64,000 nucleotides of DNA from a virus (IMGVR_UViG_3300034103_001746:1-64000); one strand, 5' to 3'. Positions 7,289 to 14,875 are shown, counted from the first letter of the stretch. Translations and numbers: made by a program. Notes: generated by a model from the letters alone, not told the origin.

Positions 7289-7304
7289 AGCAAATGCTGT
7301 GCCA
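7289..7304 (-). promoter_or_regulatory. sigma54 -24/-12 box overlapping a palindrome
   Basis: TGGCAC-AGCAT-TTGCT. Confidence 0.7.
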
Positions 7305-7341
7305 ATTTGGCAGTTTTCGCGGCCGGTCTGCCATTTTGGCA
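7300..7341. repeat. Paired-palindrome element copy 6
   Basis: palindromes at 7300 and 7329. Confidence 0.95.
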
Positions 7342-7426
7342 GCACTAGTAGTAGGCTATCTGACCTAACGATTGCGACCATACGTCGAAGAGCAGCCACC
7401 GCAATCTTGCCTATCTAATCTAGTGT
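7342..7426 (-). ncRNA. structured 3-prime element or RNA after ORF 7449-7859
   Basis: nested stems CACTAG/CTAGTG, TAGGC/GCCTA, GATTGCGG/TCGCAATC. Confidence 0.5.
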
Positions 7427-7448
7427 GCCATCTAGCAGAACCAACCCC

Positions 7449-7859
7449 TCAAAAGAGGAGGCTGGCCAAGCCGGTCTTGAAAGCAACCCCACCCAAGAGG
7501 GGCCGACGCACATTGCGAGTACGTTCAGCATAGAAGTTGCGAATCTTACCATCTGGAGTTTGAGCAGTCACAAGATTACGACCACGCTGAAAATTAGTAT
7601 CATATCGACGATAGTTACTCTTGGCATTCAATCGTGCGATATAATCATCAGTGAACTGATGAACCCCAAGAACCTTTGCCATATAACGCTCGGGAGTACC
7701 AGTTACAGGCTGAACATATTCAAAATTGTAAATGTTACCAACCTTAGCATTGGTCAGACTATCATTCAGACCACGATACAGGTGAAACACTGCGAAAGCA
7801 AACAAACCACCAATAACAGCAGCCACAACACCAGCAACCAACAGCATATCGTTCATCAT
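7449..7859 (-). CDS. membrane-anchored protein, possible WYL/Sm-like beta-barrel
   Basis: N-terminal hydrophobic helix; LVTAQTPDGKIRNFYAER resembles the WYL-domain C-terminal RxFxxxR. Confidence 0.55.
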   Translation of the reverse strand: MMNDMLLVAGVVAAVIGGLFAFAVFHLYRGLNDSLTNAKVGNIYNFEYVQPVTGTPERYMAKVLGVHQFTDDYIARLNAKSNYRRYDTNFQRGRNLVTAQTPDGKIRNFYAERTRNVRRPLLGGVAFKTGLASLLF

Positions 7860-7916
7860 TGTAAACCCTTTCGTTTGAAGACCTTTTCTACGATTCTACA
7901 CTATGATCGACATTTG

Positions 7917-8162
7917 TCAAGCATCAACTTCAACAAAATCCTGCACCCAATCACGATTCACGCTTTCGCGGTCGATACCAGAATCAGACCAAGCCACACC
8001 ATCGGGCGTTTGATAAGCAATCTCACTTCCCAAATCTTTCATACAATCCACAAACTCATCATAAGACTCACACTGTCGGGCCAGATTGTAAAGTCCCTCG
8101 TCGTTGTTGATCCAAAGAACCACATTCCAAGTTTCGTAATTCTTGAAACCGTTGTAAGTCAT
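7917..8162 (-). CDS. conserved-looking phage hypothetical (YNGFKNYETWNVxLW)
   Basis: AAGGA RBS, own promoter. Confidence 0.75.
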   Translation of the reverse strand: MTYNGFKNYETWNVVLWINNDEGLYNLARQCESYDEFVDCMKDLGSEIAYQTPDGVAWSDSGIDRESVNRDWVQDFVEVDA

Positions 8163-8240
8163 TTTCTTTTCCTTTCGTGTCTCTTGATTCTACATTACTT
8201 ATCGGTACTGTCAAGAGAAAAAATTAGAAAAAATCTTGGG

Positions 8241-8282
8241 TGCCATTTTGGCAGTTTTCGCGGCCCCGCTGCCGTTTTGGCA
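8241..8282. repeat. Paired-palindrome element copy 7
   Basis: palindromes at 8241 and 8270. Confidence 0.95.
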
Positions 8283-8296
8283 GATCGGGGTTTTCT

Positions 8297-8806
8297 TTAT
8301 GCTTCTACCTCATCTGAGAAAAACTCATCCATACCAAACTCATTCCATAATGCTACAGGAATAGTATCCTTACTTTCATATTTGTAATGATGATCAAAAC
8401 CATTATCCCAAATACCGCAAAAGGCCATTCCAGGTTCCCAATAACTGGCTTTTACATTATATCCCAACTCTACCAATTTTTCGTACAAACCAATAGGAGG
8501 CGACCAAGCACTATCAAAACTACAATTAGCCTGATTACCAACCACTGTAGCCTTCAAGCCGTGCCATTCCTCACGGTCAGTACCAATATCAGCACCAATA
8601 TCCCACTTAGTTCCCCAATTATTGCAGCACCAACTATACCAATAATTTGGATCATTTTCGTCTAGAATAATATCGCCGCTTTCATTTTTAGGAACCGGCA
8701 AATAATGCTCACAAACCTTACCAGCATTATAAGCATCAACAAATTCCTTCAACTTAGAAATATCATTATGCTCAACAGTCAACTTATTCATGCACCAATT
8801 TGGCAT
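8297..8806 (-). CDS. DUF1281/YubB (Api92-like) ferredoxin-fold family protein
   Basis: MPNWCxN start, WYxWxxxNWGTKWD, FDSAWSPP and EPGMAFCG motifs. Confidence 0.75.
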   Translation of the reverse strand: MPNWCMNKLTVEHNDISKLKEFVDAYNAGKVCEHYLPVPKNESGDIILDENDPNYWYSWCCNNWGTKWDIGADIGTDREEWHGLKATVVGNQANCSFDSAWSPPIGLYEKLVELGYNVKASYWEPGMAFCGIWDNGFDHHYKYESKDTIPVALWNEFGMDEFFSDEVEA

Positions 8807-8861
8807 ATTTCGCTCCTTTGGCTTGAGTTTACACTATAGTTTATCAGTTGTCAATAGATCA

Positions 8862-8916
8862 AAACTTTCGCTGACTACACCCACACCACCCAAATCCGAA
8901 GGATTAGGAAAGACAA
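8862..8916. repeat. 55-bp upstream element copy B
   Basis: matches 3772-3826. Confidence 0.85.
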
Positions 8917-9087
8917 TCACCATCCATCACCGATAGCCTTGCGGCTTTTGGAACCTCTGGTACGAAGCCGTTTTGGACGGCTGTCGTGCTCTCCACCACC
9001 CGAACGATGGTTATTATGGCCGTGGCCCAATTCCCATAAAGGACGCACGCTCAACTTTACAACGATATTTTTCTTTCGATTGCTCAT
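8917..9087 (-). CDS. small basic His/Gly-rich protein (likely start MSNRKK, possibly leaderless)
   Basis: ATG 7 nt after -10 box 9095-9100; the longer ORF-track start lies inside the repeat cassette. Confidence 0.65.
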   Translation of the reverse strand: MSNRKKNIVVKLSVRPLWELGHGHNNHRSGGGEHDSRPKRLRTRGSKSRKAIGDGW

Positions 9088-9148
9088 GTTGATGATCCTA
9101 CCATAATTTATCGGCTCGTCAACTATATTTCTTGAAAAAATATTGAGA

Positions 9149-9164
9149 AGCAAATATTGTGCCA
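9149..9164 (-). promoter_or_regulatory. sigma54 -24/-12 box overlapping a palindrome
   Basis: TGGCAC-AATAT-TTGCT. Confidence 0.7.
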
Positions 9165-12924: not shown

Positions 12925-12966
12925 TGCCATTTTGGCAGTTTTCGCGGCCAGCCTGCCATTTTGGCA
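12925..12966. repeat. Paired-palindrome element copy 11
   Basis: palindromes at 12925 and 12954. Confidence 0.95.
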
Positions 12967-13026
12967 GTATTCTTTCGCTGGCTACTGTCACAATGTCAGC
13001 CGATAGGATCGGCTGTTACAGTAATA

Positions 13027-13254
13027 TTACTCTGCTCTTACATAAATCTCGCTACTATTACCATTATCATAAATAGTAACAAGCCAGTGTCGGCCGCTAC
13101 CATCTTCCGGCCGCATACCATTTATGATACCGTAAATCTGTCCAAGATTATAACGAATACAAACACGTTCACGATTCTGCATTTTCTGGCAAAGCCAGTT
13201 ATAGTTATAAACGGGGGTTTTATTATCAACAACCATACCGTGTACCGTGCTCAT
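13027..13254 (-). CDS. hypothetical protein
   Basis: 75 aa with purine-rich RBS. Confidence 0.65.
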   Translation of the reverse strand: MSTVHGMVVDNKTPVYNYNWLCQKMQNRERVCIRYNLGQIYGIINGMRPEDGSGRHWLVTIYDNGNSSEIYVRAE

Positions 13255-13409
13255 TTGCTATATCCCTTCATTTGCATAACAAGATTGTAACAATCGTCGA
13301 ATGTAAGATATTCCGCAATAACTTTACCATTCATCCACACGCTATAACGATCCTTACTGTTATTTGTTACATTCCAGTATATCATGTTACATTCTCCAAT
13401 GTAAAAGAA

Positions 13410-13625
13410 TTAGATCGCTACAGTTTTACGATATGCCATAGCATATAGAGCGTCGATAACAACACGAACAACCGTATTCATGTTAACATTCTTATGAGTA
13501 TAATAATTCATACGAATGTCGAAAATGTTATAACTACCATCGAAGTTTTTAACGATAGTAAATCCTACCTTATAAGCGTAGGCGTGAATCTTTCCACGAA
13601 TCGTATTTTCTTTTGGGATTTTCAT
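13410..13625 (-). CDS. hypothetical protein
   Basis: 71 aa, operon position. Confidence 0.65.
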   Translation of the reverse strand: MKIPKENTIRGKIHAYAYKVGFTIVKNFDGSYNIFDIRMNYYTHKNVNMNTVVRVVIDALYAMAYRKTVAI

Positions 13626-13645
13626 ATCTTTTTCTTTCTTTACCT

Positions 13646-13870
13646 TTATCGACCTACAGTCATCAAACCCTTGAAATGAGAAAAAATTAACGTCAAATCC
13701 TTATTAGGATACTTTTGGTCGATATACTTCTGTGCAGTGCTTTTCCGATTATCAGTAGACCCAACATACTGAACAATCGTACCATCCTTATCGACAACTT
13801 TCCACACTTTTCTTTCTTGAATCCTAGGGAGACTGCGGATAAAATCGTTAACGTGAGTTGCCTTTTGCAT
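13646..13870 (-). CDS. hypothetical protein
   Basis: directly downstream of promoter 13897-13924. Confidence 0.7.
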   Translation of the reverse strand: MQKATHVNDFIRSLPRIQERKVWKVVDKDGTIVQYVGSTDNRKSTAQKYIDQKYPNKDLTLIFSHFKGLMTVGR

Positions 13871-13956
13871 TTTCTTTCTCTCTTTCTTATGCTTTGATTA
13901 TACCTTAGAATATCGTCAATGCAAGAAAAAAAAATTAGAATAAAAAAGATTTTTTG

Positions 13957-14009
13957 TGGCATGAGATTTGCTATGCCAATTTGGCAGAGGTTTTGGCACA
14001 ACATTTGCT
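13957..14009 (+). promoter_or_regulatory. two sigma54 boxes flanking a single palindrome (13974-13986)
   Basis: TGGCAT-GAGAT-TTGCT (13957), TGGCAC-AACAT-TTGCT (13994). Confidence 0.7.
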
Positions 14010-14014
14010 GCTCC

Positions 14015-14056
14015 TGCCATTTTGGCAGTTTGGCGGCCCGGCCTGCCATTTTGGCA
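14015..14056. repeat. Paired-palindrome element copy 12
   Basis: palindromes at 14015 and 14044. Confidence 0.95.
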
Positions 14057-14334
14057 GTCTCCCCTCTTTAGAGGTATAGAGGTATAAACCCCCTATTTAA
14101 GGGGGTATGCCCCCAAGTAGTCTAGATGTCTAACCCACCCCCTCGCATGGGGGGTTCCATGCCTCTTGCGAATCAAACGAAGTTGAGAAGCCAACTCCCC
14201 CCTATATGAGGGGTGCGACCCCCTACGAATCCATTCGCCTATCCATTTGTTCACCGGAACCGCTACCATCATTTCAGGATACCATACCATGATTTTCCCC
14301 TTTTTTCAAAGTACCATTGTCGCCGGTCTACCCC

Positions 14335-14571
14335 TCACGAGAGGGGGAAGTCGTCCAGCGTCACAGTCGAACAATTTTCGAGATAGACTGAACCATAATT
14401 CACTTCACCACGATATGCTCCGGCATAATTCGCGTGACTCTTGATCACTACCAACGTACCTTTGTAGGTTTCGCGGACATTTTCTACCTGGCCCTCAAAA
14501 ATCCTACCATCATTCCGAACGGCCTTGATATACATTCCTGAAACGGGCTGGATCGTAGTGGTCATTTTCAT
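14335..14571 (-). CDS. hypothetical protein (likely start MKMTTT)
   Basis: GGAG RBS, promoter 14608-14635. Confidence 0.65.
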   Translation of the reverse strand: MKMTTTIQPVSGMYIKAVRNDGRIFEGQVENVRETYKGTLVVIKSHANYAGAYRGEVNYGSVYLENCSTVTLDDFPLS

Positions 14572-14859
14572 TTTCTCCATTTGGGTTTTCGTTATCATCA
14601 TGCCACGATTATACATTATATGATCGGCTTGTCCAGAAAAAAAAATTAGATATTTTCCAGCGTATCGGTAAATATTCTCCATTTTGCCGCATCCAAATTA
14701 TTTCGCCGCAACATACCAATCAAGGATTCAAGAATCCTAATTTCGAGCAAAATCATTGTCGTTTTCTCCGTTTCCATTGTTATATCATTGATATCGGCAT
14801 TGTCAAAAAAAAGAAATAGAAAAATTGCCATTGGAGAAAGTTTCGCCGCTCGATTTTTT

Positions 14860-14875
14860 TGGCACGATTTTTGCT
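14860..14875 (+). promoter_or_regulatory. sigma54 -24/-12 box (consensus match)
   Basis: TGGCAC-GATTT-TTGCT. Confidence 0.75.

What the first reader, a model, noticed from the sequence alone, without database searches (positions are those of the whole stretch)
7289..14875. Eight sigma54 (RpoN) -24/-12 boxes, six facing against the early genes
Seen: TGGCA(C/T)-N5-TTGCT at 12173, 12887, 12904, 13957, 13994 and 14860 (plus) and at 7289-7304 and 9149-9164 (minus, sharing TGGCA with a palindrome). Two boxes are only 1 bp apart, and most plus-strand boxes have the palindromes directly over their would-be start site. Known: this is the RpoN consensus, and sigma54 holoenzyme forms stable closed complexes until a bEBP activates it. 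Inference: the geometry fits a sigma54/bEBP sink, roadblock or antisense switch better than ordinary promoters. Dense RpoN sites are unusual in a phage.
Basis: partly seen in the sequence, partly recalled or inferred. Interest (0 to 1): 0.75.

Follow-up and report, generated by a model that had tools for sequence, protein, structure and literature searches.

The report
Dead-end sigma-54 sites in lake phage
A 150-kb uncultured lake phage and dozens of its relatives carry textbook binding sites for the bacterial sigma-54 RNA polymerase between their early genes. Most sites point away from any gene and straight into small hairpins, so they look like parking places for the host enzyme rather than ordinary promoters.

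Summary
Eight exact TGGCAY-N5-TTGCT boxes lie at the stated coordinates (0.03 expected). All are intergenic, in the minus-strand early-gene array of a 149.5-kb IMG/VR lake phage.

About 50 related viral contigs keep the same boxes. GG and GC never vary, and the changes that do occur are the ones sigma-54 promoters tolerate. Mirror pairs of such boxes occur in at least 120 further viral stretches (30-68% GC). That argues for a universal reader, host sigma-54.

The boxes are not ordinary promoters:
- 82 of 99 stand back-to-back with an early sigma-70-type promoter and 17 stand in tandem.
- Six of the eight here face no ORF.
- Some overlap each other.
- They are gained and lost at matching positions in relatives.
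- Neither this phage nor five complete relatives encode sigma-54 or an activator.

The adjacent double palindrome behaves as a strand-specific hairpin, not as an enhancer.

Best reading (0.45): docking sites that hold the host sigma-54 polymerase, made dead-ended by design. Main rivals are gated short-RNA or antisense promoters, or a non-sigma-54 reader.

Main caveat: the host is unknown, and the only genome bin holding related phage contigs is an actinobacterium without rpoN.

This scan has noted the same coupling before in a related phage. I found no paper describing it.

The parts
12173..12188 (+). Sigma-54-type box, back-to-back with the early promoter at 12140-12113. Its predicted start (~12199) lies in the loop of the first palindrome.
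12887..12902 (+). Sigma-54-type box, first of a tandem pair 1 bp apart. Its predicted start (~12913) lies inside the second box, so both cannot be used at once.
12904..12919 (+). Sigma-54-type box. Its predicted start (~12930) lies in palindrome 12924-12938.
13957..13972 (+). Sigma-54-type box followed by the solo palindrome 13973-13987. This is the first unit of a box-palindrome-box-pair arrangement that recurs in relatives.
13994..14009 (+). Sigma-54-type box. Its predicted start (~14020) lies in palindrome 14014-14028.
14860..14875 (+). Orphan sigma-54-type box with no palindrome pair. Its predicted start (~14886) sits at an intrinsic-terminator-like hairpin.
14882..14908 (+). Plus-strand hairpin (8 pairs) followed by seven T. 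It dead-ends anything started at box 14860 before the protease gene (15005-16216, minus strand).
7289..7304 (-). Sigma-54-type box pointing the same way as the early genes, 42 bp upstream of the -35 of promoter 7262-7235. Its TGGCA is the left half of palindrome 7299-7313.
9149..9164 (-). Sigma-54-type box pointing the same way as the early genes, 42 bp upstream of the -35 (9122-9117) of the promoter of a 56-aa basic protein gene (9087-8917). It shares TGGCA with palindrome 9159-9173.
7299..7342 (+). Double palindrome: two CTGCCA-N3-TGGCAG units, 29 bp centre to centre.
9159..9202 (+). Double palindrome. The second unit has one mismatch.
12192..12235 (+). Double palindrome directly downstream of box 12173, with T-rich loops on the box strand.
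12924..12967 (+). Double palindrome downstream of boxes 12887 and 12904. The second hairpin plus a T-rich tail was flagged as terminator-like on the plus strand.
13973..13987 (+). Solo palindrome between boxes 13957 and 13994.
14014..14057 (+). Double palindrome downstream of box 13994.
12113..12140 (-). Early sigma-70-type promoter (TTGACT-N16-TAGAAT) back-to-back with box 12173. It is an example of the cassette's promoter half; others are at 12854-12827 and 7262-7235.
16541..16771 (-). First early gene (P0002, 76 aa): a three-helix HTH plus an RGRP AT-hook, conserved in 36 family loci. It is a candidate reader of the TGGCA palindromes by inference only.

Best explanation
The boxes are genuine high-affinity binding sites for the host's sigma-54 RNA polymerase holoenzyme. 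They are built into the upstream, antisense face of a repeated early-gene boundary cassette: hairpins, then box, then an A/T-rich stretch, then a strong sigma-70-type promoter.

Shown:
- The sequence and its conservation pattern match sigma-54 sites.
- The boxes always lie upstream of an early promoter, mostly back-to-back with it.
- They sit 20-22 nt before a pair of hairpin-forming palindromes, so the would-be start falls in the first hairpin loop.
- Hairpin-plus-T signals follow on that strand only.
- No activator and no sigma-54 gene is encoded by the phage.

Inferred: the polymerase docks as a closed complex and rarely fires. When it does fire, the transcript is cut short. The useful act is therefore binding rather than mRNA synthesis. 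Binding could withdraw sigma-54 polymerase from host promoters as phage DNA multiplies. It could also occupy the shared A/T-rich region next to the early promoter. The two boxes that point with the genes (7289, 9149) may add a conditional sigma-54 input to their early promoters.
For: - Enrichment: 8 boxes against 0.03 expected, all intergenic in the early region.
- Family logo from 79 position-locked sites: GG and GC (almost) invariant (78-79 of 79). The only common changes are T1>C, C4>T, C6>T and T16>A. Sites are either near-perfect or absent: 74 with 0-1 mismatches, 5 with 2-3, and 174 with 4 or more.
- Co-occurrence with the palindrome pair: the pair occurs in 68 IMG/VR stretches and boxes in most of those loci.
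- Mirror pairs of boxes in at least 120 further viral stretches, GC 30-68%. Their N5 spacers are not complementary, and only 4 of 119 loci carry the family's HTH gene. That points to a universal reader.
- Orientation rule: 82 back-to-back, 17 tandem, 0 other.
- Spacing to the palindromes is 20-22 nt in 51 boxes.
- Terminator-like signals within 150 nt downstream on the box strand in 53 of 160 boxes, against 4 upstream and 3 on the opposite strand.
- Overlapping tandem boxes (12887/12904) and a box aimed at a terminator (14860).
- A box is present at a module in relative L085 where the matching module here has none.
- No sigma-54 domains, bEBP AAA+ domain or HTH_8 in this phage, and no bEBP in five complete relatives.
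- Each complete relative keeps 2-9 clustered boxes.
- Non-productive sigma-54 holoenzyme binding is well documented in E. coli, where a decoy role has been suggested (PMC4591121).
Against: - The host is unknown. The only genome bin with related phage contigs (G001; contigs C18, C37, C90) is an actinobacterium: it has WhiB hits, no Sigma54_DBD and no true bEBP.
- A pure decoy does not need a fixed orientation or fixed spacing to the hairpins. Those features point to a cis role or to real firing.
- Strand-specific terminators suggest that some transcription does start there.
- Copy number is low in some relatives (2 in G003).
- No binding or expression data exist.
Confidence: 0.45

Rival explanations
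1. The boxes are working, gated sigma-54 promoters. A host bEBP acting from solution, or an unrecognised phage factor, fires them. They make either short hairpin-ended RNAs of about 45-50 nt (start in palindrome 1, end after palindrome 2) or antisense RNA against the 3' end of the upstream early gene. This would serve as a timing switch for early-gene shut-off.
For: - Fixed 20-22 nt spacing places the start at the palindrome centre.
- Loop polarity follows box polarity: 56 against 6.
- G.U bias of palindrome variants on the box strand, 76 against 20, and box-strand-specific hairpin-plus-T signals, both imply that this strand is read as RNA.
- The orientation bias of 82 to 17.
Against: - No activator gene in six complete genomes.
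- Boxes are gained and lost at matching modules, so no particular gene depends on them.
- Overlapping and mirror arrangements cannot both fire.
- Box 14860 starts at a terminator.
- The spacer that would be the body of the short RNA shows no conserved sequence or structure beyond a central CG.
Confidence: 0.25
2. The boxes are not read by sigma-54. A phage-encoded protein binds both the boxes and the TGGCA palindromes, and the host has no rpoN. One candidate is the conserved first early gene product P0002, an HTH with an AT-hook. The match to the sigma-54 consensus would then be a coincidence or mimicry.
For: - Boxes and palindromes share the TGGCA core and sit at fixed distance.
- P0002 is conserved across the family (36 loci) and folds as a three-helix HTH (pLDDT 82).
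- Its model aligns weakly with the RpoN-box domain of sigma-54: 8re4_M residues 405-472 at Z 4.8, and 5ui5_V at Z 4.6, with 20-22% identity.
- Related phage contigs are binned with an actinobacterial MAG that lacks rpoN.
- The -10 hexamer TAGAAT, and GC hairpins without T tracts, are reminiscent of actinobacteria. This rests on my own knowledge and was not tested.
Against: - The second block would have to match TTGCW at exactly the sigma-54 spacing, with the sigma-54 pattern of tolerated changes.
- The same boxes, including mirror pairs, occur in many viral contigs of 30-68% GC that lack a P0002-like gene nearby.
- The best fold match of P0002 is the GcrA DNA-binding domain (Z 6.9), and the sigma-54 rows are within the noise expected for small HTH domains.
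- No WhiB in this phage or in five relatives.
- Binning of phage contigs by composition is weak host evidence.
Confidence: 0.13
3. The docked sigma-54 closed complexes, with or without a palindrome-bound protein, act as head-on roadblocks. They stop read-through from the upstream early gene before it occludes the next strong promoter, working as a protein-based terminator or insulator at cassette borders.
For: - Boxes lie exactly at gene boundaries and face the incoming polymerase.
- Sense-strand hairpins there lack T tracts.
Against: - In E. coli, sigma-54 holoenzyme bound inside genes did not lower expression of those genes. The authors regard roadblock repression as effectively ruled out (PMC4591121).
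- Seven of the twelve paired-palindrome cassette borders in this window have no box and most family modules have none (87 of 149).
Confidence: 0.07
4. The boxes are passengers with no function of their own. They spread because they are part of a recombining mobile cassette.
For: - The cassettes are repeated and shuffled among relatives.
- Boxes come and go.
Against: - Near-perfect consensus is maintained in diverged phages while flanks drift, and the distribution is bimodal: present or absent, with no decayed copies.
- Box arrays have arisen independently in unrelated viral contigs.
Confidence: 0.05

Closest known systems
Bacterial enhancer-dependent sigma-54 (RpoN) -24/-12 promoters, e.g. glnAp2 and pspA (my own knowledge), and the E. 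coli ChIP-seq set (PMC4591121)
   Same: - The same two-block sequence with GG and GC 10 nt apart.
- The same tolerated variants.
- As at many E. coli sites, binding is expected to be transcriptionally silent without an activator.
   Different: - No enhancer at the usual upstream distance, and no activator gene.
- Six of eight face no gene.
- The start site is buried in a hairpin-forming palindrome.
- Tandem boxes 1 bp apart, and in relatives mirror pairs whose -12 ends are 2-6 bp apart.
- Located in a virus.
PeSLs (promoter-early stem-loops) of T4-type phages (Arbiol et al. 2010, PMC2839356)
   Same: - A small repeated cassette of stem-loop plus strong sigma-70-like early promoter between small accessory early genes.
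- Gene content between cassettes differs among relatives.
   Different: - This phage is not T4-type: it has a long tape-measure gene, and its terminase is only distantly like those of Bacillus and Microcystis phages.
- The cassette carries an added sigma-54 box.
- In the main group, its paired hairpins are oriented to act on the antisense strand.
Non-productive, intragenic sigma-54 holoenzyme sites of E. coli and Salmonella (Bonocora et al. 2015, PMC4591121)
   Same: Conserved strong sites that bind the holoenzyme without detectable transcription. Decoy or structural roles have been proposed for them.
   Different: - Those sites are single and lie inside host genes.
- The phage sites are clustered and intergenic, locked in position relative to a promoter and to hairpins, and present in many phages.
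Stoperators of cluster A mycobacteriophages such as L5 (my own knowledge, not checked here)
   Same: Many copies of one asymmetric site in short intergenic gaps, with an orientation tied to the direction of transcription.
   Different: - Stoperators are 13-bp sites for the phage repressor of a temperate phage.
- The sites here match a host sigma factor's promoter, and no repressor is known.

Membership tests
Sigma-54 (RpoN) -24/-12 promoter / holoenzyme binding site | TGGCAC-N5-TTGCW with GG and GC exactly 10 nt apart | tested here: met
   Eight exact matches against 0.03 expected. The family logo has GG and GC in 78-79 of 79 sites.
Sigma-54 (RpoN) -24/-12 promoter / holoenzyme binding site | Host encodes rpoN | tested here: inconclusive
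   The host is unknown and there is no cultured relative. The only associated genome, G001, is a WhiB-bearing actinobacterial MAG with no Sigma54_DBD and no true bEBP. Binning is weak host evidence.
Sigma-54 (RpoN) -24/-12 promoter / holoenzyme binding site | A cognate AAA+ enhancer-binding activator is available | tested here: not met
   This row covers phage-encoded activators only. The sole PF00158 hit in the phage is RuvB. There is no HTH_8. Five complete relatives have none. Host bEBPs cannot be tested.
Sigma-54 (RpoN) -24/-12 promoter / holoenzyme binding site | Enhancer (UAS) upstream of the promoter, usually about -80 to -150 | tested here: not met
   In the main arrangement the only repeated dyads lie from -6 to +38. 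In the two minus-strand boxes they overlap the -24 element. In a divergent subgroup they end about 10 nt before the box.
Sigma-54 (RpoN) -24/-12 promoter / holoenzyme binding site | Drives a downstream gene or RNA | tested here: inconclusive
   Six boxes face no ORF and run into hairpins or a terminator. Two (7289, 9149) stand in tandem with early promoters. Rfam finds no RNA family there.
Sigma-54 (RpoN) -24/-12 promoter / holoenzyme binding site | Physical binding by sigma-54 holoenzyme | not testable with these tools
   Needs EMSA, footprinting or ChIP.
PeSL-type mobile early regulatory cassette | Repeated unit of stem-loop plus strong sigma-70-like early promoter between small early genes | tested here: met
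   Twelve paired-palindrome modules, each next to a promoter of the TTGACA-N16-TAGAAT type.
PeSL-type mobile early regulatory cassette | The stem-loop terminates the upstream gene's transcript | tested here: inconclusive
   In the main group the hairpin-plus-T signals, and the G.U bias, are on the antisense strand. In a divergent subgroup they are on the sense strand. There are no functional data.
PeSL-type mobile early regulatory cassette | T4-type phage with hyperplastic regions | tested here: not met
   The terminase is only 24-26% identical to those of Bacillus and Microcystis phages, and the phage has a long tape-measure gene. Gene content between cassettes does vary among relatives.
bEBP enhancer (paired dyad UAS) as identity of the palindrome pair | Two dyad sites about three helical turns apart | tested here: met
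   29 bp centre to centre in all 12 pairs.
bEBP enhancer (paired dyad UAS) as identity of the palindrome pair | The same sites are used in the host chromosome | tested here: not met
   A scan of 185,579 species genomes found the pair once, on a phage fragment. The single palindrome occurs in G001 only on a phage contig.
bEBP enhancer (paired dyad UAS) as identity of the palindrome pair | Symmetric double-stranded DNA recognition, with no strand bias | tested here: not met
   Single-mismatch variants keep G.U pairing on the T-loop strand in 76 cases against 20.

The most novel reading that the evidence does not exclude
The family runs a sigma-54 control unit without an enhancer-binding ATPase. 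The host sigma-54 polymerase docks at the box. Its start site lies in a TGGCA hairpin or operator read by the phage's own small HTH protein (P0002), whose fold aligns weakly with the TGGCA-reading RpoN-box domain of sigma-54. This protein would lock or release the polymerase, giving either a sigma-54 trap that disarms host sigma-54-dependent stress and defence programmes, or a set of tiny terminated RNAs.
Probability: 0.1. Interest if true: 0.85.

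Novelty: new variant of a known kind. Interest (0 to 1): 0.65.

Why it matters
Sigma-54 polymerase is the one bacterial polymerase form that binds promoters stably yet stays silent until an ATPase activates it. Finding its sites conserved in many phages would show that phages exploit the binding step itself. The sites here sit in arrangements that cannot give normal transcripts, and the phages carry no activator. Possible uses are titrating a host sigma factor, or tying early promoters to host physiology.

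It would also give a concrete, testable case of decoy sigma-factor sites, an idea so far only suggested for E. coli intragenic sites (PMC4591121). For annotation, it warns that a perfect promoter match in a phage need not mark a gene start. If the host turns out to lack rpoN, the finding becomes stranger: an independent reader with sigma-54's exact specificity.

Tried and rejected
- **Cultured relatives.** Megablast and blastn of the region and of one module against 50,697 phage records found nothing. A candidate capsid protein and P0001 also found nothing. The terminase found only distant hits. The Kyano_Gp96-like protein hits phages of Synechococcus, Caulobacter, Burkholderia, Pseudomonas and others, so it says nothing about the host.
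- **Rfam.** On 1-17.5 kb it found only the tRNA.
- **Phage-encoded sigma-54 machinery.** Sigma54_DBD, Sigma54_AID, Sigma54_activat and HTH_8 are all absent. The one AAA+ hit is RuvB.
- **Palindrome pair as a long RNA hairpin.** Spacer self-complementarity is not above the shuffled control, 347 against 383 +/- 16. Rejected.
- **Pair as a host enhancer.** Absent from bacterial genomes.
- **Pfam on 28 small early proteins.** No recognised DNA-binding domain.
- **P0001 fold.** Low confidence (pLDDT 61), not used.
- **P0002 against PDB sequences.** Nothing by single sequence or by profile.
- **Other host clues.** The Gmd atlas neighbours are mixed. There is no Cas1 in G001, so no spacer test was possible. 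No lysis genes were recognised near the end of the structural module.
- **Sigma-54 boxes on G001's own contigs.** There are 11 against about 3 expected, but most lie inside long open frames, so they are not evidence of a regulon.
- **RNA folds downstream of each box.** They gave no common structure beyond the palindromes.
- **Literature.** Searches found rpoN only as a phage-resistance locus, or as a sigma-54-like phage protein. None described box arrays.

Full report
**What the window is**

The window is the first 64 kb of a 149,532-bp IMG/VR virus record, which CheckV rates complete. Bases 1-16.2 kb hold about 40 small genes on the minus strand. Several have Pfam matches: GP88 at 701-1405, DUF7249 at 7917-8162, Kyano_Gp96 at 9996-10304, and an S8 protease at 15005-16216. 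Structural genes run on the plus strand from about 17 kb. Most small genes or gene pairs have their own minus-strand promoter of the form TTGACA-N16-TAGAAT. No cultured phage is close.

TGGCAY-N5-TTGCT occurs eight times at the reported coordinates, against 0.03 expected. The whole genome has one further copy, inside a gene at 76554. All eight are intergenic.

They are interleaved with a second element. Twelve pairs of the palindrome CTGCCA-N3-TGGCAG lie exactly 29 bp apart centre to centre, with one solo copy at 13974. All of these lie within 172-14057.

Aligning the twelve modules shows one cassette. Read on the plus strand, it runs: start of the downstream gene; its promoter; an A-rich stretch; optionally one or two boxes; the palindrome pair; then the end of the upstream gene.

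**Conservation**

An exact-pattern scan for the palindrome pair found 68 stretches of IMG/VR contigs of up to 224 kb. Most of these also hold boxes. In 149 unique modules, a box lies just upstream of the pair 56 times in the orientation where the palindrome loops read T-rich, and 6 times in the other orientation. The box starts 20-22 nt before the pair in 51 of 154 unique boxes.

I then took the site at that locked position without requiring the motif. Sites are either near-perfect or absent: 74 have 0-1 mismatches, 5 have 2-3, and 174 have 4 or more. In the 79 good sites, GG and GC are (almost) invariant. The only frequent changes are T1>C, C4>T, C6>T and T16>A. From established knowledge of sigma-54 promoters, that is the pattern expected for this sigma factor.

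Boxes are gained and lost at matching modules. The relative L085 has a box where module 10902 here has none. Four complete relatives searched keep 2-9 boxes each, clustered within a few kb.

**Who reads the boxes**

There are 129 unique pairs from contigs of 30-68% GC. Their N5 spacers are no more complementary than chance, so they are not RNA hairpins. These loci hold 557 boxes in 1 Mb. Only 4 of the 119 loci carry the family's conserved HTH gene.

A motif kept across such different phages is best explained by a reader common to many bacteria, which is sigma-54. I put this at about 0.8.

**The caveat on the host**

The single hit in the scan of 185,579 species genomes for the palindrome pair was a 1.8-kb phage fragment inside a MAG, G001. 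That MAG holds at least three contigs of a related phage, including one of about 16 kb. It has four WhiB matches, two of them on contigs of more than 170 kb, so it is an actinobacterium. It has about 42% GC, no Sigma54_DBD and no true bEBP.

From established knowledge, actinobacteria lack rpoN. Binning by composition and coverage is weak evidence for a host. Neither this phage nor five relatives carry WhiB.

**Why these are not ordinary promoters**

- Among 99 family boxes with a recognisable early promoter within 130 bp, 82 are back-to-back with it, 17 are in tandem upstream of it, and none takes any other position.
- Six of the eight boxes here face only the palindromes and the 3' end of the upstream gene.
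- The start predicted for box 12887 lies inside box 12904.
- The start of box 14860 lies at an 8-bp hairpin followed by seven T.
- No activator, sigma-54 domain or HTH_8 domain is encoded here, and no activator in five complete relatives.

**What the palindromes are**

The 14-nt spacer of the pair shows no excess self-complementarity (347 Watson-Crick positions against 383 +/- 16 in shuffles). It keeps only a central CG. So the pair is not one long hairpin.

Each 15-nt unit does behave as a hairpin on one strand. Among single-mismatch variants, 76 keep a G.U pair on the T-loop strand and 20 keep it on the other strand. That strand is the box strand.

Hairpin-plus-T signals lie within 150 nt downstream of 53 of 160 boxes on the box strand. 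The controls are 4 upstream and 3 on the opposite strand of the same stretch.

In a divergent, higher-GC subgroup (L043), the pair is flipped. It lies upstream of a box that points with the genes, and a second box faces that one.

Three facts together argue against a host bEBP enhancer: the pair's absence from bacterial genomes, its position over the start site, and the strand bias. They fit a strand-specific hairpin or terminator, possibly doubling as an operator. The stems never covary; they are invariant. That leaves room for a sequence-specific protein or for recombination-driven homogenisation, as proposed for PeSLs (PMC2839356).

**A candidate phage factor**

The first early gene (16541-16771, P0002) is conserved in 36 family loci. 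It has invariant W7, R48-R49-K50 and an RGR AT-hook. It folds as a three-helix HTH with pLDDT 82.

Its best structural match is the GcrA DNA-binding domain (Z 6.9, rmsd 2.1, 48 residues aligned). The TGGCA-reading C-terminal domain of sigma-54 appears at Z 4.8 and 4.6 with 20-22% identity. That is within the range where small HTH domains match by arrangement alone, so this is a lead and not a finding.

**Mechanism**

I favour docking (0.45). The host sigma-54 polymerase binds these near-consensus sites as a closed complex, back-to-back with the early promoter. It cannot fire usefully, because no activator is provided. The start is buried in a hairpin-forming palindrome, and hairpin-plus-T signals or a neighbouring box lie just ahead.

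The benefit would come from occupancy. One possibility is titration of sigma-54 polymerase as phage DNA multiplies. Another is competition for the shared A/T-rich upstream region. E. coli work shows that silent sigma-54 holoenzyme sites are common, that sigma-54 can repress promoters it overlaps, and that it does not act as a roadblock (PMC4591121). That last result lowers the roadblock reading to 0.07.

The fixed orientation, the spacing and the strand-specific terminators keep a gated short-RNA or antisense promoter alive at 0.25. A non-sigma-54 reader stands at 0.13, and a passenger element at 0.05.

**Novelty**

I found no paper that describes sigma-54 box arrays in phage genomes. Earlier notes of this scan report the same box-palindrome coupling in a related 167-kb freshwater phage, and box arrays in other phages. 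I re-tested three of those claims independently: the mirror pairs, the aiming at terminators, and the coupling.

The element is a new variant of known kinds. It combines a sigma-54 site with a PeSL-like cassette.

Noticed in passing
window 1427-14635, e.g. 8187-8214, 12113-12140: In one cassette type CCGATA lies in the spacer, 3 nt after the -35. In a second type it lies just after the -10. This resembles the sigma-28 -10 element. The motif is conserved across the family.
   Followed up: partly
window 12236-12258; 14057-14345; 14880-14960: Short hairpins made of a run of four to six C, a loop, and a run of four to six G follow many early genes. The one at 12236-12258 is identical in at least 8 relatives and has a UACG tetraloop on the sense (minus) strand. 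None has a T tract on the sense strand. The stretch 14057-14345 holds several in a row, and its 65-aa ORF (14093-14290) may not be real.
   Followed up: partly
window 16541-16771 (-): The first early gene encodes a 76-aa three-helix HTH with an RGRP AT-hook tail. It is conserved in 36 family loci, and its best fold match is the GcrA DNA-binding domain.
   Followed up: yes
window 8917-9087 (-): A 56-aa, very basic, Gly/His/Arg-rich protein is encoded directly behind the tandem sigma-54 box and sigma-70 promoter at 9164-9095. It has homologues in 7 family loci.
   Followed up: no
window 11881-12087 (-) and 11256-11483 (-): Two small, strongly acidic proteins conserved in 25 and 19 family loci. 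They are candidates for DNA mimics or polymerase-binding proteins.
   Followed up: no
L085 and G001 contigs C18, C37, C90: A GTDB species-representative MAG (RFTN01..., an actinobacterium by WhiB) contains at least three contigs of a phage of this family. This is either contamination or a hint to the host.
   Followed up: partly
L086-L204 (IMG/VR): Mirror pairs of sigma-54 boxes with -12 ends 2-6 bp apart (4 bp most often) occur in at least 120 viral stretches of 30-68% GC, usually with further boxes nearby.
   Followed up: partly
window 20138-23227 (+): The large terminase ORF is 1029 aa, with HNH-endonuclease and helicase-like PHROG hits in its middle. This suggests an inserted element such as an intein or homing endonuclease.
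   Followed up: no
G000 76554-76569 (-): The ninth exact sigma-54-type box lies antisense inside the 1307-aa ORF 75844-79767, far from the early region.
   Followed up: no
window 16973-17638 (+): A 221-aa protein with a weak Sigma70_r2 match heads the plus-strand late block. It is a probable phage sigma factor for late genes.
   Followed up: no
G000 142939-143946 (-): The phage encodes a full-length Volactin-family actin homologue (Pfam E 4.5e-63). A RuvB gene (144630-145526) and a thioredoxin gene lie nearby.
   Followed up: no
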